A DNA stretch of 64,000 bases. It comes from Parcubacteria group bacterium GW2011_GWC1_45_13. GTDB taxonomy: Bacteria > Patescibacteriota > Minisyncoccia > UBA11713 > 2-01-FULL-45-33. The position numbers and the translations under genes were made by a program. The stretch is from assembly GCA_001001285.1 (NCBI GenBank), contig LCKG01000003.1, positions 27,746-91,745 on the forward strand, read 5' to 3'. The notes below the pieces were generated by a model. The model saw only the letters and a list, made by a program, of their open reading frames with translations, ran no database searches and was not told the origin of the DNA. Positions 4,849 through 58,633 of this stretch are shown here, piece after piece. Numbering within the stretch: position 1 is the first letter of the stretch; each line of letters starts with the position of its first letter.

Positions 4849-4857
4849 TTATCCACA
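4849..4857 (+). promoter_or_regulatory. Perfect DnaA box TTATCCACA, 36 nt upstream of nrdJ
   Basis: Exact 9-mer consensus. One of four same-strand perfect copies in the window. Confidence 0.5.
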
Positions 4858-8149: not shown

Positions 8150-8413
8150 ATGAATGAAAAAGAGCTGGAAAAGGCGTTAAAAGCGCTGGCCAATAAAAGA
8201 AGGCTTCAAATTCTGCGGTATTTAAAAAAAGTTAAAGAAGCGCCGGTGGGGGATATCGCTGAAGAAATTCGTTTGTCGTTTAAATCAACCTCCCGGCACT
8301 TGGCGGTGCTTGCCGCGGCCGATATTTTAGAGCGGGACCAAAGAAGCCTCCAAGTTTTCTATCGCCTCGGCGCGCTTCGGCACGCGGCGAAATATATTTT
8401 ATCTATTCTTTGA
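8150..8413 (+). CDS. ArsR/SmtB-family winged-helix transcriptional regulator
   Basis: LKALANKRRLQILRYL…VGDIAEEIRLSFKSTSRHLAVLAAADIL…FYRL is a typical ArsR HTH. 87 aa. Confidence 0.75.
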   Translation: MNEKELEKALKALANKRRLQILRYLKKVKEAPVGDIAEEIRLSFKSTSRHLAVLAAADILERDQRSLQVFYRLGALRHAAKYILSIL

Positions 8414-8620: not shown

Positions 8621-9325
8621 TTGAATATGTTGTTAGAAAAAGAAAAAAGAAAATCAGGTAACGAAGCAATACGCGTTTTAATTTCCTTAAAAACAAAGAT
8701 TTTGCGTGATTTAAAGGAAGTTGTTAATGCTGGCGATTTTGATTACCGCACTTTTGGTACAGCCATTGAAAAGCATCTTACTGATATTATTGTCAGTATT
8801 TTTGAGAAAGCCGGTTTTATTAAAAATAATAAAGATTATATCGTTGCACCCCATAAAAATTATTTTCCAGATTTCGAACTAAAAACAGCGCCACCCATCG
8901 CTATTGAGTTTAAATCCGGGAATAGAAATCAAAATAGACAGGGTAAATGGGCGACGGTTAAAAATAGCGAGAATGATATGGGCACTCTTAATGAATGGCC
9001 CAAAAGAATTAAAAAATTCGGTGGTAAAAATATTTATTATATTTTTGTTATCTATAATTTTAGTGAGAAAACAAAACAAGTTCAAAATGTTGAAATCGCT
9101 CCGTTTTATGAATTTTTAGGTTTGAACAAGTCCAAGTTTATTAAATATCGAGAAAAAGATGGAAATTTGCGGCCCAAAAATTTTGATGCTAAGCCGCCCA
9201 TTAAAACTTTTGAGCAATTTGAACAATTAATCAACAAAACCGCCGTTTATAGATCCAGGCGAATTATTAAGAAGCACAGACAAATTATAAAGGATGTGCA
9301 GAATATTAAAAAAGGGATGGATTAA
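8621..9325 (+). CDS. Putative Type II restriction endonuclease (PD-(D/E)xK fold) – hypothetical
   Basis: …YFPDFELKTAPPIAIEFKSG… gives PD-x12-EFK, a PD-(D/E)xK-like catalytic signature. Convergent with the MTase gene, overlapping it by 20 nt. AT-rich. No recognisable family beyond the motif. Confidence 0.45.
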   Translation: MNMLLEKEKRKSGNEAIRVLISLKTKILRDLKEVVNAGDFDYRTFGTAIEKHLTDIIVSIFEKAGFIKNNKDYIVAPHKNYFPDFELKTAPPIAIEFKSGNRNQNRQGKWATVKNSENDMGTLNEWPKRIKKFGGKNIYYIFVIYNFSEKTKQVQNVEIAPFYEFLGLNKSKFIKYREKDGNLRPKNFDAKPPIKTFEQFEQLINKTAVYRSRRIIKKHRQIIKDVQNIKKGMD

Positions 9326-10868
9326 TTGGTTTACTATTCTGCTTTGTGCCGTAAGTTAATTTAGGATTATCTATAGGATAGATCCCTTCGTTCTCGGATA
9401 TAGTCAAATTTCTTAAATATTTTGATGCCGTTTCAGGCGCGTCGTTGTTATACTTATAACCATTACTTGAACGATAATTAACCTTTTTAAGTTTATCCGC
9501 AACGATTTTTTTATATTTTGGGTCTATATCAATACCAATATAATTTCGGCCTAGTCTTTTTGCTGCCAAAGCTGTTGTACCAGCACCGATAAATGGATCT
9601 AAAATAACATCGTTTTCATCTGTAGTCATAAGAACCAGACGTTCAAGTAATGGTTCGGGGAGTTGGCACGGATGAGCGTCCCTGCGCGTATTATGTCTTA
9701 TGCGATGTATATCCGCCCAAACATCGCTCAAAAGAGTCCCGTGCGGGTGTATTTGGCTTTTCTTGCCCCCATAGTCTTTAATCATTTCACCACAAGTTCG
9801 GCATTTTTTATGCGGCGATCTAAGTTCATGGAATTTAAATCCCTTGGGGGTTTTTGTATAAAATAGTATTCCATAGTGTGCTGGCAACAAAGTTTTTCCC
9901 AGAGGCGTACTCATTGAATCCCATGCTATCCAGTGTTTAAAGATAGCAATTTTGTTAAGATGGTTGGCATAATAAATTAACCACTTTGGTATATTGTGAA
10001 CCAAAATCGAACCCGTTGGTTTAGTTATTCTGACCATTTCGGTTAACCATTGCTCGCACCATTTTATATAATCCTCCGCAACCCTTTTATCTTTATAGTT
10101 TCCGTATTTTTTGTTTAGGTTAAATGGCGGGTCGGCAAAAGTCATATCAATTGAGTTATCGGGTATTTTTCTCATCTCCTCAATTGAATCTCCACACAAA
10201 ATTTCGTTTAATGGAAGTTTTTTGTATTGTTTTGTTTCAGTTTTGATTTCCGGAAAAATAATAGATATGGGCGTTTCCTCTCGAATAACATCTAGCACAA
10301 TCCCTTGAATAGCTACATCCCGCCCATTTCTGAAAATAAGAGGTTCCATATTTTTATTAGCCGGCTGTAAACGGATATATCCGTGCTCTTTATAGAATTT
10401 TTTTAAGGTTGCTTCGTGGTTATCTATAAGAGCTACTACTTTTTGCCCATTTTCGGCAGTTTCTTGTTGGCGCACCAAAACAACGTCGCCATCGTTGATA
10501 TTTTCATCAATCATACTATTCCCGACAACGCGGAGAGCATAAACCTCCGATGAGGAGGGAATTTTACTTTTCGGGACGGCTATGGTTTCTCTTTGTTCCT
10601 CAAATACATGGATTGGCTCACCGGCGGCTATTGTTCCCCATAAAGGAATTTTTACTAGCTTCTCCGACGAGGATATTTCAATGCCTCTTTTCTGATTTTT
10701 TTGCCGCTGTAAATAACCCTTATTTTGCAGTGCCATTAAATGTTGATGAATTGTGGATATAGCCAAGCCCATCCTTTGCCCCATTTCTTTAATGGAGGGC
10801 GCAAAGCCGCGCTTTTTGGTGTAGGAGGTTACAAAATCTAACACCTGTTTTTGCCTGGGGGTAAGCAT
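9306..10868 (-). CDS. LexA repressor (wHTH + S24 autopeptidase) fused to beta-class N6-adenine/N4-cytosine DNA methyltransferase
   Basis: LexA half (N-terminal ~200 aa): LTPRQKQVLDF…; Ala-Gly cleavage site in GTIAAGEP; LRVVGNSMIDENINDGDVVLV (nucleophile Ser); ATLKKF (general-base Lys); IQGIVLDVIR. MTase half (C-terminal ~320 aa): motif IV DMTFADPPF precedes motif I DPFIGAGTTALAAKRLGRNYIGIDID (beta-group order); CxxC…HPH insert. Single uninterrupted 520-aa ORF. Confidence 0.8.
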   Translation of the reverse strand: MLTPRQKQVLDFVTSYTKKRGFAPSIKEMGQRMGLAISTIHQHLMALQNKGYLQRQKNQKRGIEISSSEKLVKIPLWGTIAAGEPIHVFEEQRETIAVPKSKIPSSSEVYALRVVGNSMIDENINDGDVVLVRQQETAENGQKVVALIDNHEATLKKFYKEHGYIRLQPANKNMEPLIFRNGRDVAIQGIVLDVIREETPISIIFPEIKTETKQYKKLPLNEILCGDSIEEMRKIPDNSIDMTFADPPFNLNKKYGNYKDKRVAEDYIKWCEQWLTEMVRITKPTGSILVHNIPKWLIYYANHLNKIAIFKHWIAWDSMSTPLGKTLLPAHYGILFYTKTPKGFKFHELRSPHKKCRTCGEMIKDYGGKKSQIHPHGTLLSDVWADIHRIRHNTRRDAHPCQLPEPLLERLVLMTTDENDVILDPFIGAGTTALAAKRLGRNYIGIDIDPKYKKIVADKLKKVNYRSSNGYKYNNDAPETASKYLRNLTISENEGIYPIDNPKLTYGTKQNSKPINPSLF

Positions 10869-10909
10869 ATTTTAATTTTAGCAGGTATATACCGAAAGAA
10901 AACCGAAAG

Positions 10910-10918
10910 TTATCCACA
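10910..10918 (+). promoter_or_regulatory. Perfect DnaA box TTATCCACA in the divergent promoter region of the LexA-MTase gene
   Basis: Exact 9-mer, 42 nt upstream of the minus-strand start codon. Flanked by the direct repeat ACCGAAAG-aaa-ACCGAAAG (10893..10908). Confidence 0.45.
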
Positions 10919-11012: not shown

Positions 11013-11678
11013 ATGTCAGAATCAATAAATATTAACGATGTTTTTAAAGAAATAGAAAAGTCTGATAAGTCAGAATATCATCGCGGTAAATCTTGGGAAC
11101 ATTGTTATATTTTTTTCAGAAACTATAAAAAATTCGGAAGTGATAAGTTGATGGCAGATTACGCAGCGCTACATTTGGGTTTTTTTCTAGCTAGTTGGGG
11201 GATGTTGCGTGGTTCGAGCTTTTTGTTGCAGAAAGATTACAGATACTTCCTTCCGGTTGTTCGCGTATTGATAAAAGACCAATATAAAGTTTTGTGGAAT
11301 GTTGGCTATTTAAATTTGAACAAAAATCAAGAAAGCGAAATTATTGATATCTTGTTTTGGTTAAAAGACGACATTTGTAAAGTTATGACTCACAATAATC
11401 CTGACGGTAGAAAACCAACCGATTTGTTGATAACAAAAATTATAATGGCCACGATGGGCTGCGTGCCCGCTTATGATCAATATTTTAAGGCCGGTCTTAA
11501 GAGGCGTGGAATTAAAAATAACTTCAGCAAAAAAGCCTTCATAGATTTATTGAATTTCTCGAGAAAAAAACTAGAAAAACTTTATATCAAAAAACAGCCT
11601 ATTAAAGGGACAAATTATAATTATCCTACAGTGAAACTTATAGATTTATACTTTTGGCTTTTAGGTTCGCAAAAATAA
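11013..11678 (+). CDS. Hypothetical protein (divergent from LexA-MTase gene)
   Basis: 221-aa ORF with no recognisable motifs. AT-rich. Shares the 144-bp intergenic region with the LexA-MTase promoter. Confidence 0.6.
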   Translation: MSESININDVFKEIEKSDKSEYHRGKSWEHCYIFFRNYKKFGSDKLMADYAALHLGFFLASWGMLRGSSFLLQKDYRYFLPVVRVLIKDQYKVLWNVGYLNLNKNQESEIIDILFWLKDDICKVMTHNNPDGRKPTDLLITKIIMATMGCVPAYDQYFKAGLKRRGIKNNFSKKAFIDLLNFSRKKLEKLYIKKQPIKGTNYNYPTVKLIDLYFWLLGSQK

Positions 11679-12074: not shown

Positions 12075-14461
12075 AAATTATTTAATAGCCAATTAATATC
12101 TTCTTTTAATAAGTTGTAAGCTTGGTCGTTGATGTTTTTGGGATGTTCTCGTTCCAATTCGGCAAGGAACGTTTTTAACGTCTTTTGAGTGATGGGTTTG
12201 TTGTGGATATCTATCCTCTCTAATTTCCCAATCAGAGTGTTTTTAACGCTCTTTTTGGTTATCCACCCCAAAGAATACACGCGCTCAATATCGGAGATTG
12301 TACTCTGGATAGTCGCAATGACACGGAACACCGTCTCTTGATTCGCGAAGTTTCCTACAAAATCAACGGAGTTTACTGCAACCTTATGCTCTCCCAACTT
12401 CTCAAAGAATAAATCAATTATATCGCCGTTCTTTACCATTCTATCATCAAATTTAATCTCTGCGGAGGCAATGCCGGATTCCACATCGCCCACATCCACG
12501 TTTATGAAAATGGTTTCGGAGCGGAGATAATCGCGGGAGACAGGGGAAAGGATATTAATGCTTGGCGGGGTTACATCTTTTGGTTTTATTTCTAAATCGG
12601 TAGGGCTTTCGTTGTTTACTTTTAAGTCCAACTCCGTAATTAATCCGGGCTGGGTTTGGGAGGTATAGTCTTTATCCACAGAGATATTATCTGAAATATA
12701 GCCCGTGGCGATGGTATATTCGCCGCTTCCGGTTCCTTGAGCTTCAATTTTATATTCGCCGTCCAATGGATTAGGGATAGTTATATATTCGTCGTCCGTA
12801 AGAAATCCGGAATAAAACGCGCCATCAATTTGATTAATTTCGTTCCCGCTCGCGAAGTCTTTGCCAATTCTTTTCCCGTCCGGCGCAGTTACTAAAACAT
12901 CAACAGGGGAGAGGATTTTGATGAGGAGGAGTTTCGGATTTATCGATAAGCCATGATCAATCAAGATTGCGGCATTTGCGCCAGTAAGTTTTTTGAAGAT
13001 TAAGCCCTCGGCATTTGTTGGTAACGCATTATGCCCTGAAATCAATTGATTCAAATCACTTACTATAAATTCTCCGCTGCCAGCGGGTACAGTTCCGTCG
13101 CCGAATCCAAATTCAAAGCCTCTATCTGCTGTTGAGCCATCAAATCCATCTGGATAACCATTTTCCCATAAAGGAGTACTGGGAGAATTCACAACTCTAA
13201 TAGCATTTAGAGTGCTGTTATCTCCCAAATCGCCGACTACATTAGTAATTTTTATATTTTTATCAAAAAGACTTAAAACGCTGGTTTTAAGATTTTCAAG
13301 AAAAGTATTTTGAGGATAATTATTTGGATAAGTACGCAACGTTCCGCTATCTTTATCGCGTAGGTAATTGTAAGTTGGGAGAAGTTCTTGGACAGAAGAA
13401 ATTGGTTTGTTTCTTACATAATCAAATAGACTAGAGTACCTCGCCTTTTTAGCTTCTCTACCTAAAACAAATTTCATAAACCAGTCTCTTAGTCTTTCGC
13501 CGGTGTTGCCTGTTTTTGTACCAATCTCACCCGCTTCCCACATAAGATAAGCAAAAGGAGCCCCTAAATGCGGCGTTCCTAAAAAGATCAGTTGGTCAAC
13601 GTCGTTTTCGTAGTTGCCCGACTGGATGTATTGGCGCGCGACGAGGCCGCCCATGGAATGGGCAACAAGGTCAACTTTCGCGCAGTGGCAAACATTTTGG
13701 ACTTCGTTTATTTTGTCGCGAAGCTGGACGGCGGTAATCACATTAGATTGCCGCCAATCGTACGGAAAAGTGAAAAGATCTTTGCCGTCAACATATCCGT
13801 TGGCTTTTAAGGTCGCAATCAGGTCGTCATAGGTATGAAAAATCGGGTCAATCACCCAGACGCCGTTTTTGTCCGACGAGCCCAAAATCCCGGGAATGAT
13901 TATGACGGGGTCTGGCTTTGCTGGCGCTTGTATGGCGCTTTTTATATCAAAATGGATTAAGGCATGCTGGAAATCACCAATCCCTTTTTCAAATAAATCC
14001 ACTGTTTGCGCGGAGCTGGACGCGTCCGAAACGGCTACGAAAAAAGACTGGTTTGTCCCCAGCGGCATTTTAATTATGCCGTCAACGTTTCTATTGGCAC
14101 CGTCGCAGGAAAAGAGAGGAAAGTTAGAGCCAGCTTGGTAAAGCTTGGAATGGCCGATTTCATTACCTCTTGTTCCGTCATAAGTAAAAACATCAAAGCG
14201 AGGATTCAGAATATTGCCATTCGCACATTTGCTGTATACTTGTATGGCGGCAGGAGTTGTAGAGCCGATTAAGGTAAGTGGAAAACAATCCGTGCTGGAG
14301 TTAATTAGGCGCAGAAGCTCCCAGTTGTTCAGCGGCCCGGTAAACTCCGTGATAAACGTGCAGTCGCTCGATTGCAAAGAAGCATAATCCGCGAAGGCAA
14401 TTTGTGCCGTAAGCAGGGCGTAAACAGCGAAAAAAATGGTTAAAGCGTGTTTTCGCATTGC
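12071..14461 (-). CDS. Secreted lipase/esterase-like alpha/beta hydrolase (GxSxG)
   Basis: Signal peptide MRKHALTIFFAVYALLTAQIAFA (start taken at the second Met). Lipase nucleophile elbow VAHSMGGLV. About 800 aa with a long C-terminal beta-rich region. Confidence 0.7.
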   Translation of the reverse strand, partial: AMRKHALTIFFAVYALLTAQIAFADYASLQSSDCTFITEFTGPLNNWELLRLINSSTDCFPLTLIGSTTPAAIQVYSKCANGNILNPRFDVFTYDGTRGNEIGHSKLYQAGSNFPLFSCDGANRNVDGIIKMPLGTNQSFFVAVSDASSSAQTVDLFEKGIGDFQHALIHFDIKSAIQAPAKPDPVIIIPGILGSSDKNGVWVIDPIFHTYDDLIATLKANGYVDGKDLFTFPYDWRQSNVITAVQLRDKINEVQNVCHCAKVDLVAHSMGGLVARQYIQSGNYENDVDQLIFLGTPHLGAPFAYLMWEAGEIGTKTGNTGERLRDWFMKFVLGREAKKARYSSLFDYVRNKPISSVQELLPTYNYLRDKDSGTLRTYPNNYPQNTFLENLKTSVLSLFDKNIKITNVVGDLGDNSTLNAIRVVNSPSTPLWENGYPDGFDGSTADRGFEFGFGDGTVPAGSGEFIVSDLNQLISGHNALPTNAEGLIFKKLTGANAAILIDHGLSINPKLLLIKILSPVDVLVTAPDGKRIGKDFASGNEINQIDGAFYSGFLTDDEYITIPNPLDGEYKIEAQGTGSGEYTIATGYISDNISVDKDYTSQTQPGLITELDLKVNNESPTDLEIKPKDVTPPSINILSPVSRDYLRSETIFINVDVGDVESGIASAEIKFDDRMVKNGDIIDLFFEKLGEHKVAVNSVDFVGNFANQETVFRVIATIQSTISDIERVYSLGWITKKSVKNTLIGKLERIDIHNKPITQKTLKTFLAELEREHPKNINDQAYNLLKEDINWLLNNL

Positions 14462-36538: not shown

Positions 36539-36547
36539 TTATCCACA
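36539..36547 (+). promoter_or_regulatory. Perfect DnaA box TTATCCACA
   Basis: Exact 9-mer in the 400-bp intergenic region. Confidence 0.4.
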
Positions 36548-42220: not shown

Positions 42221-42229
42221 TTATCCACA
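42221..42229 (+). promoter_or_regulatory. Perfect DnaA box TTATCCACA upstream of rpoB, preceded by two CCGAC/GTCGG hairpins (42178..42220)
   Basis: Exact 9-mer. Hairpins CTCCGAC-gctgcg-GTCGGAG and AGCCGAC-N9-GTCGGCT. Confidence 0.45.
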
Positions 42230-53905: not shown

Positions 53906-54922
53906 ATGGCAAAAAAAGAAGAGAAACAATCAAAGGACAGCAGGTGGCAGCAGGTGGACGCGGCGGTGAGGGATTTGGAGTCCAAATTCGGCGAAGGCGT
54001 GCTTATGAAATTGGGAGACGTCGCGAAAGTTGACGTGGACGTGATTCCGACAGGCTCTTTGAGTTTGGATATGGCTTTGGGGGTCGGCGGAATCCCGCGG
54101 GGAAGAATTATTGAAATTTTTGGGCCGGAGTCTTCCGGAAAAACCACTCTGGCTCTTCATGTTATAGCGGAAGCCCAGAAAAAAGGAGGCATCACCGCTT
54201 TTATTGACGCCGAGCACGCGCTTGACCCGGAATACTCAAAACGGCTGGGCGTAAAGACGGAAGACCTTTTGATTTCCCAGCCGGACACCGGCGAGCAGGC
54301 GCTGGAAATTATTGAATCATTGGTGCGCTCGGGAAAAGTTGACGTGATAGTCGTGGATTCAGTCGCCGCGCTAACTCCTAAAGCGGAAATAGAAGGGGAT
54401 ATGGGCCAGCAGCATATGGGGCTTCAGGCGCGCCTTATGTCGCACGCGCTCCGGAAGCTTACGGCGATAGTCGCCAAGTCCAACACCATAGTAATATTTC
54501 TCAATCAAATCAGGATGAAAATCGGAATAATGTTCGGAAATCCGGAGACCACTCCCGGAGGCAACGCGCTTAAATTTTATTGTTCGGTGCGGATTGATTT
54601 AAGGCGCCTCGCCCAGATTAAAAAAGGCGAGGACATAATCGGCAACCGCGTGAAGGCAAAAATCGTGAAAAATAAAGTGGCGCCGCCTTTTAAAATCGCC
54701 GAGTTTGATATTTTATACAACGAAGGCATTTCTTTTGAAAGCGACCTTTTGGGGCTCGGCGAAAAATACGGCGTTGTAAAAAAATCGGGGGCTTCCTACA
54801 GCTTCGGGGATATTTCTTTGGGGAGGGGCTACGACGCCGCCAGATTAAAGCTCAAAGAAGACAAAAAACTAACCCAAGAATTGGTAAAAGCGATAAAAGA
54901 GATCGCAAAGAAGGCGGAATAA
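53906..54922 (+). CDS. recA: Recombinase RecA
   Basis: [20 protein letters not shown] (Walker A) and L1/L2 loops. 338 aa. Confidence 0.95.
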
Positions 54923-58066: not shown

Positions 58067-58633
58067 TTATAAATTAAACAGTTTTTTCATATGCAGTTCG
58101 TTATCAATTTCGTTAGCCGTAACGAATCTGACATAAGGCCTTACATTAAAAAACTCTATTATAAAATCAACTTCGTCTTTACATTCGAATGGATGAACAA
58201 ATACGCTTTTTTGGAATTTTATAAATCCGGCGTTTTTTAGCACTCTGGCAAAAGCGTCTCTAGCCCTTTTCATATTTTCCGGTATATCAAAAAGAACTAT
58301 GCGCCATTTTTTGTCCCACTTTTTCATTGGCTGTATTTTTAATTCATCAATTTGGTAAGTTAGAACTTTCTTTTTGCCGCGCTCGGTTAAAATAAGTGTT
58401 GTTGCGCCGTTTACGTTATCCACAACGTCTATGAGGCGAGAGCGGTACAAGCTTTTTATGGCATTGTAAAGCGCACGTCGTTCGATATTCTTCCATTCTT
58501 TTCCGATCATTCTTATAATTTTAAAGTATCGCTGCGGTGAATGCGTAAGCCCGAGCGCCAAACCGCCCCAGAGCAAAAGCATCACTTTTTGAGCAGTTGG
58601 GCCTATTCGCGGTTCTGAATAACGTTTTCGCAT
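58067..58633 (-). CDS. PaaX-like transcriptional regulator family protein (paralog 2)
   Basis: wHTH (RALYNAIKSLYRSRLIDV) plus KKWDKKWRIVLFDIPENMKRARDAFARVLKNAGFIKFQKSVFVHP. Confidence 0.65.
   Translation of the reverse strand: MRKRYSEPRIGPTAQKVMLLLWGGLALGLTHSPQRYFKIIRMIGKEWKNIERRALYNAIKSLYRSRLIDVVDNVNGATTLILTERGKKKVLTYQIDELKIQPMKKWDKKWRIVLFDIPENMKRARDAFARVLKNAGFIKFQKSVFVHPFECKDEVDFIIEFFNVRPYVRFVTANEIDNELHMKKLFNL

What the first reader, a model, noticed from the sequence alone, without database searches (positions are those of the whole stretch)
9306..10868. Complete LexA repressor fused in-frame to a DNA methyltransferase
The N-terminal ~200 aa align along their whole length with LexA. They have the wHTH, the Ala-Gly autocleavage site (IAAGEP), the Ser nucleophile (GNSM) and the Lys general base (TLKKF), so the domain looks self-cleavage competent. 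The C-terminal ~320 aa are a beta-class amino-MTase (motif IV FADPPF before motif I DPFIGAGTT). Short N-terminal HTH autoregulatory extensions on R-M methyltransferases are documented (established knowledge). A full RecA*-cleavable LexA fused to an MTase is not something I recognise as described. It would couple the methylation or expression status of an R-M-like module directly to the SOS signal, and recA is in the same window. Plausible consequences are SOS-triggered release of the MTase from a DNA-tethering or repressing domain, or damage-induced de-repression of the module.
Basis: partly seen in the sequence, partly recalled or inferred. Interest (0 to 1): 0.92.

Follow-up and report, generated by a model that had tools for sequence, protein, structure and literature searches.

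The report
LexA-fused methyltransferase of a restriction system
The gene is real: it is the protective methyltransferase of a two-gene restriction-modification system, and it carries a complete, apparently self-cleaving LexA (DNA-damage-sensing) repressor that seems to control its own promoter, an uncharacterised but widespread way of wiring restriction systems to the SOS signal.

Summary
Observation confirmed. Window 9306-10868 (-) is an uninterrupted 520-aa ORF. It encodes a full LexA (TIGR00498, 199 bits against a cut-off of 111; Ala82-Gly83, Ser118, Lys156) joined by a ~25-aa linker to a beta-class DNA methyltransferase (DPPF, then FxGxG). At least 108 clusters share the architecture, and the cleavage and catalytic residues are invariant (109/109).

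New findings:
2. The fusion's promoter carries an 11-bp-period direct repeat (TTTCGGT-N4-TTTCGGT, 10891-10908). It is found only there, and its half-site co-varies with the LexA recognition helix.
3. The same promoter-operator-LexA cassette is fused to beta, gamma, alpha (Dam-like) and C5 methyltransferases. Unfused, it precedes a DpnI-type nuclease. Partners include AlwI- and Tsp45I-family enzymes.

Best reading: a self-repressing methyltransferase (as in SsoII/Ecl18kI) whose repressor is RecA*-cleavable, so DNA damage or incoming ssDNA would boost methylation. Cleavage, repression and the physiological direction are inferred, not shown. No description was found in the searchable literature. 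It is a new variant of known kinds, and of high interest.

The parts
9306..10868 (-). LexA-methyltransferase fusion gene (520 aa), the M subunit of the R-M module
   Evidence: Uninterrupted ORF. Pfam and NCBIfam hits. At least 108 full-length homolog clusters.
10683..10865 (-). LexA winged-HTH DNA-binding domain (aa 2-62). The recognition helix is around aa 37-49 (ISTIHQHLMALQN).
   Evidence: PF01726 E 1.7e-19. AF2 pLDDT 82-85. Helix residues co-vary with the operator half-site.
10620..10625 (-). Ala82-Gly83 autocleavage site (IAA|GEP)
   Evidence: Aligns with E. coli A84-G85. Invariant in 109/109 family members and in 43/43 long LexA-fusion sequences of all MTase classes.
10296..10646 (-). 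Peptidase S24 core (aa 75-191) with the nucleophile Ser118 (10515-10517) and general base Lys156 (10401-10403)
   Evidence: PF00717 E 3.7e-30. S118 and K156 invariant in 109/109 and 43/43.
10194..10277 (-). Poorly conserved linker (aa ~198-225) between the S24 core and the MTase
   Evidence: Mean column identity 0.52, against 0.75 for S24 and 0.90 for the MTase. AF2 pLDDT about 30.
9501..10151 (-). Beta-class N6/N4 DNA methyltransferase domain (aa 240-456). Motif IV DPPF is at 10122-10133 and motif I FIGAG at 9579-9593.
   Evidence: PF01555 E 3.7e-51. PADLOC MTase_II 2.2e-71. PDB homologs 9c3u/8urk, M.MboIIA and M.RsrI. Motifs invariant.
8621..9325 (+). Partner Type II restriction endonuclease with an EcoRV-like PD-(D/E)xK fold (234 aa from TTG 8621; the likely start is ATG 8627, as in the 232-aa P0121). 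Catalytic D84, E96 and K98 are at 8870-8872, 8906-8908 and 8912-8914. It is convergent with the M gene and overlaps its 3' end by 20 nt.
10891..10908 (-). Putative operator: the tandem direct repeat TTTCGGT-tttc-TTTCGGT (11-bp period), at -40 to -23 relative to the ATG
   Evidence: The only perfect copy in the 64-kb window. A period-11 repeat occurs in 59/66 homologous promoters, against 3.3% of random windows. Both half-sites change together and change with the recognition helix.
10910..10918 (-). Conserved 9-mer TGTGGATAA (identical to the DnaA-box consensus TTATCCACA) abutting the operator
   Evidence: An exact copy lies in 16/19 beta-family promoters and 35/49 gamma-family promoters. 17 of the 19 copies in 196.5 kb of those loci are in these promoters.
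10875..10883 (-). Candidate extended -10 element (TGcTAAAAT) immediately downstream of the operator. A second TAAAAT lies at 10869-10874.
   Evidence: Read directly from the sequence. It aligns with TATAAT, TAGAAT and TGATATAAT in homologous promoters. Not experimentally mapped.
53906..54922 (+). recA (338 aa), the presumed trans-acting co-protease. It is not physically linked to the module.
   Evidence: PF00154 E 1.3e-137. No operator copy upstream of it.

Best explanation
The locus is a chromosomal Type II restriction-modification system of a Patescibacteria-type bacterium. It has two genes: an EcoRV-like restriction endonuclease (8621-9325) and a methyltransferase whose N-terminus is a complete LexA repressor (9306-10868).

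Proposed mechanism:
1. The fusion protein dimerises, through the S24 domain and probably the MTase, and its two winged-HTH domains bind the tandem repeat TTTCGGT-N4-TTTCGGT. That repeat sits between a conserved upstream 9-mer and the -10 box of its own promoter.
2. The methyltransferase therefore represses its own synthesis once enough has been made. This is the logic known for M.SsoII, M.Ecl18kI and M.EcoRII.
3. When RecA* filaments form (DNA damage, or single-stranded DNA entering a cell), the S24 Ser118/Lys156 dyad cuts Ala82-Gly83. This detaches the DNA-binding domain from the S24-MTase body.
4. The promoter is de-repressed and untethered MTase accumulates. The nuclease gene has no operator of this kind. 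It may even be dampened by convergent read-through from the de-repressed M gene, because the two genes overlap tail to tail.
5. The net effect would be extra protective methylation during repair, recombination or establishment in a new host. That would be a Type II counterpart of damage-induced restriction alleviation.

Shown by computation: the domain anatomy, conservation of the catalytic residues, the nuclease fold of the partner, co-inheritance, the position of the private operator, helix-operator co-variation, and the portability of the cassette.

Inferred: operator binding, repression, RecA*-dependent cleavage, and the direction and purpose of the response.
For: Anatomy.

Selection on cleavage: A82, G83, S118 and K156 are invariant in 109/109 family members, while the S24 domain overall has 0.75 column identity and the wHTH 0.64. 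They are also invariant in 43/43 long LexA-fusion sequences across MTase classes.

R-M identity: the partner has an EcoRV/SwaI/NlaIV/HincII-like fold with invariant D84/E96/K98, and it is co-inherited in 27/27 loci in unrelated chromosomal neighbourhoods. In other fusion classes the partners are Pfam-recognised REases: AlwI and DpnI in L197, and Tsp45I in L199.

Operator:
- There is a single perfect copy in the window, at the gene's own promoter. Loose matches are at chance level (12 found against 12.9 expected), and there is none at recA.
- A period-11 repeat is found in 59/66 promoters, against 3.3% of random windows and 1.3% of shuffled promoters.
- Each locus has one operator site at M (L017 has a second, inverted copy just before the ATG) and none upstream of R.
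- The half-site changes in both copies together and tracks the recognition helix: ST[IV]H[EQ]H with TCGG, STAHFH with TTTCTAT in 3 loci, ATVHKH with TTTCGCT, STVHHH with GTTCTA, PTVYQY with GTTAGTA.

The direct-repeat format matches a known LexA box type, GTTC-N7-GTTC in Alphaproteobacteria (PMC8565304).

S24-less variants (wHTH joined directly to the same MTase) keep the operator and the partner. This shows that autoregulation is the base function and S24 is an added layer.

The cassette is portable across beta, gamma, alpha and C5 MTases and a DpnI operon.

Precedent for dual-function MTase repressors, and for damage-induced restriction alleviation (Type I only), comes from PMC12707154.
Against: No biochemical evidence exists: cleavage, DNA binding and repression are all untested.

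The benefit of extra methylation during SOS is not obvious for Type II systems, because hemimethylated DNA is normally already protected.

In the unfused LexA-DpnI operon the same cassette would de-repress a nuclease rather than a methyltransferase. The common denominator may therefore be 'SOS-inducible expression of whichever gene follows' rather than protection.

In E. coli, LexA cleavage products are degraded by ClpXP and Lon (established knowledge). If the S24-MTase fragment were degraded too, the net effect could be the opposite of the one proposed.

It is not known whether these small genomes carry another LexA, nor whether their RecA acts as a co-protease.

The AF2 model of the fusion was unusable for the MTase half (pLDDT below 50), so nothing can be said about inter-domain geometry.
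Confidence: 0.6

Rival explanations
1. The LexA moiety is used only as a DNA-binding and dimerisation module for autoregulation. Self-cleavage is not a physiological switch, or it happens at a slow RecA-independent rate that merely sets protein turnover.
For: S24-less variants with the same MTase, partner and operator exist and are presumably functional, so the S24 domain is dispensable for the basic circuit. LexA's C-terminal domain is its dimerisation domain (established knowledge). Tandem half-sites need a dimer.
Against: Ala-Gly, Ser and Lys are invariant in 109/109 and 43/43 sequences, although the surrounding S24 positions vary. A pure dimerisation role would not hold the nucleophile, the general base and the scissile bond fixed across families of 45-83% identity.
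Confidence: 0.17
2. Suicide or abortive-infection device. RecA* activation by phage or severe damage cleaves the fusion, and the S24-MTase fragment is degraded like E. coli LexA fragments. Methylation lapses and the stable nuclease attacks the chromosome or the replicating phage DNA.
For: R-M systems behave as toxin-antitoxin-like addiction modules and induce SOS when unbalanced (PMC3874152). After cleavage the new C-terminus of the N-fragment would be ...GTIAA, resembling the ClpX-recognised ...VAA of E. coli LexA (established knowledge plus the sequence). The same cassette placed upstream of a DpnI-type nuclease would switch a nuclease ON upon SOS.
Against: Cleavage also de-represses the M promoter, so supply of the protein rises. 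Existing methylation persists on DNA and is lost only through replication, which SOS slows. There is no evidence for a degron on the large fragment.
Confidence: 0.1
3. The protein is the organism's own global SOS repressor that happens to have captured a methyltransferase, and it controls a genome-wide SOS regulon.
For: It scores as a LexA equivalog, and NCBI's pipeline names it 'transcriptional repressor LexA'. There is no second LexA in the 64-kb window or in any fetched flank. The small CPR genomes could economise on regulators.
Against: The operator occurs once in 64 kb, at the gene's own promoter, and not at recA. Operator specificity differs between close relatives and co-varies with the helix, which is hard to reconcile with a fixed regulon. 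The gene is always tied to a nuclease, lies in variable genomic contexts, sometimes next to tRNA genes, and has a patchy distribution. The same cassette is fused to four unrelated MTase classes. The nearest ordinary LexAs are only 45-48% identical and come from other phyla.
Confidence: 0.06
4. Artefact: two adjacent genes (lexA and an MTase gene) merged by a sequencing or assembly frameshift.
For: One NCBI gene call (P0110, 347 aa) starts inside the S24 domain on a contig where JGI calls the full 520 aa.
Against: At least 108 independent clusters from four data sources keep the same reading frame and a linker of similar length. The fusion also recurs with other MTase classes.
Confidence: 0.01

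Closest known systems
Dual-function methyltransferase-repressors of Type II R-M systems (M.SsoII, M.Ecl18kI, M.EcoRII, M.MspI, M.ScrFIA)
   Same: An N-terminal DNA-binding domain on the MTase binds an operator in the R-M promoter region and autoregulates M (PMC12707154 section 11, PMC3978073, PMC2760811). The S24-less variants P0114-P0116 have essentially this architecture.
   Different: In those systems the regulatory region is a short (~70 aa) HTH with no protease domain and no known signal input. Their R and M genes are usually divergent and share the operator. Here the regulator is a complete LexA with an S24 self-cleavage module, the operator is a tandem direct repeat, R and M are convergent and overlapping, and R has no operator of this kind.
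LexA, the SOS repressor (TIGR00498), especially the Alphaproteobacteria type that binds GTTC-N7-GTTC
   Same: Full-length similarity with the wHTH, hinge Ala-Gly and S24 Ser/Lys. It has a site in its own promoter. The operator format, (G/T)TTC-N7-(G/T)TTC as a direct repeat, is that of a documented LexA box class (PMC8565304).
   Different: It is covalently joined to an enzyme and linked to a nuclease gene. The operator is private and its specificity differs between lineages, and no regulon is detectable in the sequence available.
C-protein (controller) regulated R-M systems (C.PvuII, C.BamHI, C.AhdI, C.Esp1396I)
   Same: A small dedicated transcription factor with system-specific operators times M against R. 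Specificity variants parallel the C-box incompatibility groups (PMC2175313, PMC12707154). Some homologous loci also carry an HTH_3 gene directly upstream of R (L009, L014, L016, L025, L199).
   Different: C proteins are free-standing XRE-type HTH dimers that act on the C/R operon and have no cleavage switch. Here the controller is fused to M and belongs to the LexA family.
DNA-damage-induced restriction alleviation of Type I systems (ClpXP degradation of HsdR of EcoKI; assembly control in Type IC)
   Same: It links DNA damage to a temporary shift of the restriction/modification balance toward protection (PMC12707154 sections 25-26).
   Different: That mechanism is post-translational, acts on the R subunit, is host-protease dependent and is confined to Type I systems. 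Here the proposed route is transcriptional de-repression and untethering of M in a Type II system, via a built-in RecA*-sensing domain. It is inferred only.
S24-type cleavable repressors of mobile elements (lambda CI, ICE SXT SetR)
   Same: A selfish or mobile element carries its own LexA-like self-cleaving repressor with private operators, and so reads the host SOS signal (established knowledge).
   Different: Those repressors are free-standing and control lysogeny or transfer genes. They use XRE-type HTH N-domains rather than the LexA wHTH, and none is fused to a DNA-modifying enzyme.

Membership tests
LexA (TIGR00498 / PF01726 + PF00717) | N-terminal LexA-type winged HTH | tested here: met
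   PF01726 aa 2-62, E 1.7e-19. AF2 helices 4-20, 26-33 and 37-49 plus a wing, pLDDT above 80.
LexA (TIGR00498 / PF01726 + PF00717) | Full-length match above the curated equivalog threshold | tested here: met
   199.2 bits against a cut-off of 110.95, covering profile positions 4-201 of 203.
LexA (TIGR00498 / PF01726 + PF00717) | Ala-Gly scissile bond and Ser/Lys catalytic dyad at homologous positions | tested here: met
   A82-G83, S118 and K156 align with E. coli A84-G85, S119 and K156. They are invariant in 109/109 and 43/43.
LexA (TIGR00498 / PF01726 + PF00717) | RecA*-stimulated autocleavage | not testable with these tools
   This needs biochemistry. An intact recA is present at 53906-54922.
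LexA (TIGR00498 / PF01726 + PF00717) | Represses a multi-gene SOS regulon through a shared operator | tested here: inconclusive
   There is only one operator in 64 kb, at the gene's own promoter. None lies at recA, and loose matches are at chance level. In the homologous loci operators occur only at the M promoter, never elsewhere in the flanks. Whole genomes were not available.
Beta-class N6/N4 DNA methyltransferase (PF01555) | Catalytic motif IV (D/S)PP(Y/F) located N-terminal to the AdoMet motif I FxGxG | tested here: met
   DPPF at aa 246-249 and FIGAG at aa 426-430, both invariant. PF01555 E 3.7e-51.
Beta-class N6/N4 DNA methyltransferase (PF01555) | Target base (m6A or m4C) and recognition sequence | tested here: inconclusive
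   The DPPF motif and the best hits (adenine MTase models PRK11524 and CcrM, M.MboIIA, M.RsrI) favour m6A. Palindrome-avoidance analysis gave no clear target.
Type II restriction-modification system | An adjacent restriction endonuclease gene with a PD-(D/E)xK catalytic core | tested here: met
Type II restriction-modification system | Co-inheritance of the R and M genes | tested here: met
   27/27 fusion loci carry the partner, against 1/58 unfused-MTase loci. The partner is also present with the S24-less variants.
Type II restriction-modification system | Sequence-specific cleavage that is blocked by the cognate methylation | not testable with these tools
   This requires enzymology or methylome data.
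Dual-function MTase-repressor (SsoII/Ecl18kI/EcoRII type) | A DNA-binding domain fused to the N-terminus of the MTase | tested here: met
Dual-function MTase-repressor (SsoII/Ecl18kI/EcoRII type) | An operator for that domain in the system's own promoter | tested here: met
   A conserved tandem repeat lies next to the -10 box in 59/66 promoters and co-varies with the recognition helix. Binding itself is not demonstrated.
Dual-function MTase-repressor (SsoII/Ecl18kI/EcoRII type) | Regulatory region homologous to the short SsoII-type HTH | tested here: not met
   The domain is LexA_DNA_bind plus Peptidase_S24 (about 200 aa), not a ~70-aa HTH. The system works like this family but is not a homologous member.
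C-protein-controlled R-M system | A free-standing XRE-type C gene immediately upstream of R | tested here: not met
   The window has only an ArsR-type HTH gene (8150-8413), 207 nt upstream of R. HTH_3 genes abut R in L009, L014, L016, L025 and L199, so this is an optional add-on in relatives.

The most novel reading that the evidence does not exclude
A previously unrecognised third class of restriction-system controller, alongside C proteins and short HTH extensions on MTases. It is a portable cassette made of a promoter, a DnaA-box-like 9-mer, a tandem operator and a self-cleaving LexA. The cassette has been grafted onto all four DNA methyltransferase classes and, unfused, onto DpnI-type nucleases, mainly in Patescibacteria/CPR bacteria but also in Omnitrophota. 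It would wire Type II restriction-modification directly to RecA*/SOS, and possibly to the replication initiator. It would also give Type II systems a built-in damage- or ssDNA-entry-responsive 'restriction alleviation/establishment' switch, with lineage-specific operator specificities that prevent cross-talk between co-resident systems.
Probability: 0.5. Interest if true: 0.88.

Novelty: new variant of a known kind. Interest (0 to 1): 0.8.

Why it matters
How Type II R-M systems avoid killing their host during establishment, repair and recombination is explained so far by C proteins, short HTH-MTase fusions, antisense RNAs and promoter methylation. A direct input from the DNA-damage signal is known only for Type I systems, through host proteases.

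A methyltransferase that carries its own RecA*-sensing, self-cleaving repressor would be the first built-in SOS input to Type II restriction-modification. It is easy to test: one protein, one 18-bp operator, standard cleavage and reporter assays.

The cassette recurs on four unrelated MTase classes and on a methyl-dependent nuclease, which argues that it is a general and successful solution in ultra-small CPR bacteria, where almost no regulation has been studied experimentally.

It also offers:
1. A natural series of LexA recognition-helix and operator pairs (TCGG, CTAT, CGCT, TAG...) for studying how LexA specificity evolves.
2. A natural example of a damage-releasable DNA-tethered enzyme.
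3. A warning for annotation pipelines, which currently label these proteins either 'LexA' or 'adenine methyltransferase' and would miscount SOS regulators in CPR genomes.

Tried and rejected
1. Global-regulon test. I searched the window for the operator with up to 3 mismatches and for the looser KTTC-N7-KTTC pattern. Matches were at chance level except at the gene's own promoter, and recA's upstream region has none.

2. Target-site inference from palindrome avoidance in the window plus 178 kb of carrier loci. No 6-mer stood out, and only the 4-mers TCGA and GATC were moderately depleted, so the result is inconclusive.

3. AF2 model of the whole fusion. The LexA half was confident, but the MTase half had pLDDT below 50 with the shallow alignment, so the model was not used for inter-domain geometry.

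4. Phage origin. IMG/VR holds only the bare MTase core (57-65% identity, 20 contigs) and no fusion.

5. I suspected an intein or intron in the Dehalococcoidia MTase homologs because their matches span about 2 kb. They turned out to be two tandem MTase genes.

6. I considered the conserved 9-mer TGTGGATAAC as the MTase target or a generic promoter element. It is unlikely to be the target, because it is shared by beta- and gamma-class fusions and is asymmetric. It is not generic in the homologous loci, where 17 of 19 copies lie at these promoters.

8. The 2017 Patescibacteria SOS paper (PMID 28618189) is not held. I cannot exclude that it mentions these fusions or reports a similar direct-repeat LexA box for the phylum.

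9. I could not determine whether carrier genomes have a second, canonical lexA.

10. The upstream divergent ORF 11013-11678 is not part of the module: it is absent from all other loci and has no family hits.


Full report
**1. The observation.**
Window 9306-10868 (minus strand) is a single 520-aa ORF without stops.
- The N-terminal 197 residues pass NCBI's LexA equivalog model at 199 bits against a cut-off of 111, and cover almost the whole profile.
- The best solved relative is T. maritima LexA (6.5e-38).
- Alignment with E. coli LexA places A82-G83 on A84-G85, S118 on S119 and K156 on K156. I checked the codons in the raw sequence.
- DPPF (aa 246-249) precedes FIGAG (aa 426-430), which is the beta-class motif order.
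- The ORF is not an assembly accident. At least 108 independent 90%-identity clusters from NCBI, JGI, ENA and Logan share the full architecture at 65-83% identity.
- In an alignment of 109 full-length members, A82, G83, S118, K156, DPPF and FxGxG are invariant. Mean column identity is 0.64 for the wHTH, 0.75 for S24, 0.52 for the linker and 0.90 for the MTase.

**2. It is the M subunit of a restriction-modification system.**
The ORF 8621-9325 (+) is convergent with the fusion gene and overlaps its 3' end by 20 nt. It has no Pfam or NCBIfam hit.
- In three unrelated chromosomal contexts the fusion gene is followed by the same kind of convergent, overlapping ORF of about 225 aa. These ORFs are 56-73% identical to the window ORF and carry an invariant PD-x11-ExK signature (D84, E96, K98).
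- An AlphaFold model built from 32 family members is confident (pLDDT 93.1, pTM 0.86).
- In a scan of species-representative genomes, every locus with the fusion (27/27, partial ones included) has this partner. Only 1 of 58 loci with the unfused MTase core has even a distant homolog.
- The fusion occurs in MAGs labelled Parcu-, Falkow-, Doudna-, Nealson- and Giovannonibacteria, 'Patescibacteria group', and many generic TPA 'Saccharibacteria' labels. No viral contig carries it.
- The window itself is ordinary chromosome: gyrA, class II ribonucleotide reductase, YggU, FtsK and RecA.
- Flanking genes differ between loci, and three loci abut tRNA genes. This is what one expects of a mobile R-M module.

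**3. A private operator in the fusion gene's promoter.**
The sequence upstream of the ATG reads TGTGGATAAC-TTTCGGTtttcTTTCGGT-atatacc-TGcTAAAAT.
- The 18-nt tandem repeat (10891-10908) is the only perfect copy in 64 kb. Relaxed matches are at chance level (12 found against 12.9 expected), and there is none upstream of recA.
- Across beta-family and gamma-family loci, 59 of 66 promoters contain a perfect repeat of at least 7 nt with an 11-bp period next to the -10 box. The rate is 3.3% in random 150-nt windows of the same loci and 1.3% in shuffled promoters.
- The half-site differs between lineages (TTTCGGT, GTTCGGT, TTTCTAT, TTTCGCT, GTTCTA, GTTAGTA, ATCGGG), and both copies always change together.
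- The change tracks the recognition helix of the wHTH: ST[IV]H[EQ]H with TCGG, STAHFH with TTTCTAT (three independent loci), ATVHKH with TTTCGCT, STVHHH with GTTCTA, and PTVYQY with GTTAGTA. The variable helix position aligns with E45 of E. coli LexA, which I recall as a base-contacting residue (from memory, not tested here).
- This protein-DNA co-variation is the strongest computational evidence that the fused LexA binds its own promoter.
- The format (G/T)TTC-N7-(G/T)TTC is that of the documented direct-repeat LexA box of Alphaproteobacteria (PMC8565304).
- In each locus operators occur only at the M promoter (L017 has a second, inverted copy just before the ATG), and there is none upstream of R.

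**4. The S24 module is an add-on to an autoregulatory core.**
Three clusters (P0114-P0116) have a LexA-type wHTH joined directly to the same MTase, with the S24 core precisely absent.
- They keep the convergent partner, the 9-mer, a TTTAGGT-N4-TTTAGGT repeat and the -10 box.
- They also share the neighbouring YggU gene with the window.
- So wHTH-MTase autoregulation works without S24. The invariant catalytic apparatus in all S24-bearing members then argues that cleavage is a selected, additional function.

**5. The cassette is portable.**
A full HMMER scan of 1.84 billion 50%-identity representatives with the LexA part alone gave a surprise. The closest relatives are mostly long proteins: 42 of the top 149 are 378-890 aa, with LexA at residues 1-197. 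Ordinary ~200-aa LexAs begin only at about 45-50% identity, and the named ones come from other phyla (Gemmatimonadales, Wallbacteria).
- Of 20 long representatives scanned, 19 are LexA plus a DNA methyltransferase, of four different classes:
  - beta N6_N4_Mtase;
  - gamma N6_Mtase/Eco57I, with or without TaqI_C;
  - alpha D12 (Dam-like);
  - C5 DNA_methylase.
- All 43 long sequences keep Ala-Gly, Ser and Lys.
- The gamma-class family (P0263, Cand. Nealsonbacteria; at least 285 metagenomic loci) has the same promoter cassette with the same operator variants (45/49 promoters with the period-11 repeat, 35/49 with the exact 9-mer). In 40 of 42 loci it has a convergent downstream ORF, from two unannotated families.
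- An alpha-class fusion leads an operon with an AlwI-family REase, a second MTase and a DpnI-family REase (L197).
- A beta-class fusion from Cand. Omnitrophota is convergent with a Tsp45I-family REase that is preceded by an HTH_3 C-like gene (L199).
- Both carry period-11 repeats.
- The closest unfused relative (P0246, 69% identical) has the identical cassette and sits 15 nt upstream of a DpnI-family methyl-dependent nuclease.
- This is therefore a distinct, restriction-associated LexA clade, not a one-off fusion.

**6. Mechanism.**
The best-supported reading (confidence about 0.6 for the whole chain) is a self-repressing methyltransferase whose repressor domain is removable by RecA*-stimulated self-cleavage.
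- Cleavage at A82|G83 would leave the S24-MTase body without its DNA-binding domain, de-repress the promoter and raise free MTase.
- R has no such operator. It could additionally be dampened by convergent transcription, because the two genes overlap tail to tail.
- A plausible purpose is protection while repair or recombination creates unmodified sites, or while the module establishes itself after arriving as single-stranded DNA, which itself activates RecA.
- The shown steps are the anatomy, the conservation, the nuclease fold, the co-inheritance, the operator position and co-variation, and the portability.
- The inferred steps are binding, repression, cleavage and the physiological direction.
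- Rivals, with my estimated confidence:
  - S24 serves only for dimerisation or turnover (0.17).
  - A suicide device in which the cleaved MTase is degraded (0.10).
  - The host's global SOS repressor (0.06). This is disfavoured by the private, variable operator and the obligatory nuclease linkage.
  - An assembly artefact (0.01).
- The LexA-DpnI operon shows that the cassette can also put a nuclease under the same control. The unifying function may therefore be SOS-responsive expression of whichever restriction-system gene follows the cassette.

**7. Comparison with what is known.**
Functionally the closest systems are the dual-function MTase repressors (M.SsoII, M.Ecl18kI, M.EcoRII; PMC12707154 section 11, PMC3978073, PMC2760811). 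The regulatory domain here is not homologous to theirs and adds a protease switch.
- It is a bona fide LexA by sequence. The defining regulon role could not be shown.
- Damage-induced restriction alleviation is described only for Type I systems, via host proteolysis or assembly control (PMC12707154).
- That ~270,000-character review of R-M biology never mentions LexA.
- Six further full-text searches found no description of a LexA-MTase fusion.
- The one paper most likely to have noticed it (Sanchez-Osuna et al. 2017, Patescibacteria SOS network) is not in the library.
- Public annotation calls these proteins either 'transcriptional repressor LexA' or 'site-specific DNA-methyltransferase', and calls the partner 'hypothetical protein'.

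**8. Verdict.**
- The feature is a new variant of known kinds: an autoregulatory MTase combined with an S24-cleavable repressor.
- It is widespread but apparently uncharacterised.
- It is directly testable with standard assays.
- Interest 0.8.

Noticed in passing
window 10910-10918; also 4849-4857, 36539-36547, 42221-42229, 12672-12680, 58416-58424: The 9-mer TGTGGATAA/TTATCCACA, identical to the canonical DnaA-box consensus (from memory), is a conserved part of the LexA cassette. Exact copies lie in 16/19 beta-family and 35/49 gamma-family promoters, in either orientation, and often a second copy sits just before the ATG. 17 of the 19 copies in 196.5 kb of homologous loci are at these promoters. 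In the window there are 6 exact copies (about 0.5 expected), all in the same orientation, including one 44 nt upstream of the class II ribonucleotide reductase gene. This may tie M expression to the replication initiator, or the 9-mer may be a second operator. Its binder is unknown.
   Followed up: partly
L195 1125-2551 and L196 743-2169: An unfused LexA (213 aa, 69% identical to the window's LexA part) with the identical promoter-operator cassette lies 15 nt upstream of a DpnI-family methylation-dependent restriction endonuclease on the same strand. A nuclease rather than an MTase would be SOS-de-repressed here.
   Followed up: partly
L086 3510-4709, L088 2185-3363 (proteins P0114-P0116): These are S24-less variants: a LexA-type wHTH joined directly to the same MTase. 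They keep the partner nuclease, the 9-mer and a TTTAGGT-N4-TTTAGGT operator, and they sit next to a YggU gene as in the window. This indicates loss or gain of the protease module in situ.
   Followed up: yes
L197 3121-8282: A LexA-Dam-like MTase heads an operon with an AlwI-family REase, a second (N6_N4) MTase and a DpnI-family REase. A methyl-dependent nuclease next to adenine MTases is an odd combination, and its compatibility is unexplained.
   Followed up: no
L009, L014, L016, L025 (directly upstream of R); L199 5193-5417; window 8150-8413: In several relatives a 73-87-aa HTH_3 (XRE, C-protein-like) gene abuts the nuclease gene, and L011 has a MazE/AbrB-like one. These systems may therefore have two controllers, LexA on M and a C-like protein on R. 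The window instead has an ArsR-type HTH gene 207 nt upstream of R, and its relation to R is unknown.
   Followed up: partly
L028-L085 and L090-L110: The MTase core alone (aa ~220-470, proteins of 300-345 aa with no N-terminal extension) is 57-70% identical across very distant lineages: Chloroflexota, Poribacteria, Nitrospirota, Planctomycetota, several archaea and 20 viral contigs. That is unusually high conservation and implies extensive horizontal transfer. These copies mostly lack the EcoRV-like partner.
   Followed up: partly
window 9306-10868, aa 356, 359, 399, 401: Invariant Cys356-x-x-Cys359 and His399-Pro-Cys401 lie in the region between the MTase catalytic and AdoMet motifs. This could be a zinc-binding element in the target-recognition region.
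   Followed up: no
window 11013-11678 (+): A 221-aa ORF is transcribed divergently from the fusion gene and shares the 144-bp intergenic region. It has no Pfam, NCBIfam or PADLOC hit and is absent from all homologous loci. Its function is unknown.
   Followed up: partly
L005 12447-12520, L027 6368-6440, L016 6544-6633: tRNA genes (Ala, Ile, Ser) lie within about 100-350 bp of the nuclease gene in 3 of the 11 loci scanned. In L027 the sequence upstream of R appears by eye to contain two similar copies of a tRNA 3'-end-like segment, which hints at integration at tRNA genes.
   Followed up: no
window 1-64000: The tetranucleotide palindromes TCGA and GATC are depleted to 0.36 and 0.46 of the Markov expectation. 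This may reflect other restriction systems in this genome.
   Followed up: no
L066, L071, L079, L083: Dehalococcoidia/SAR202 genomes carry two tandem paralogous copies of the unfused MTase. I first mistook this for an insertion in the gene.
   Followed up: yes
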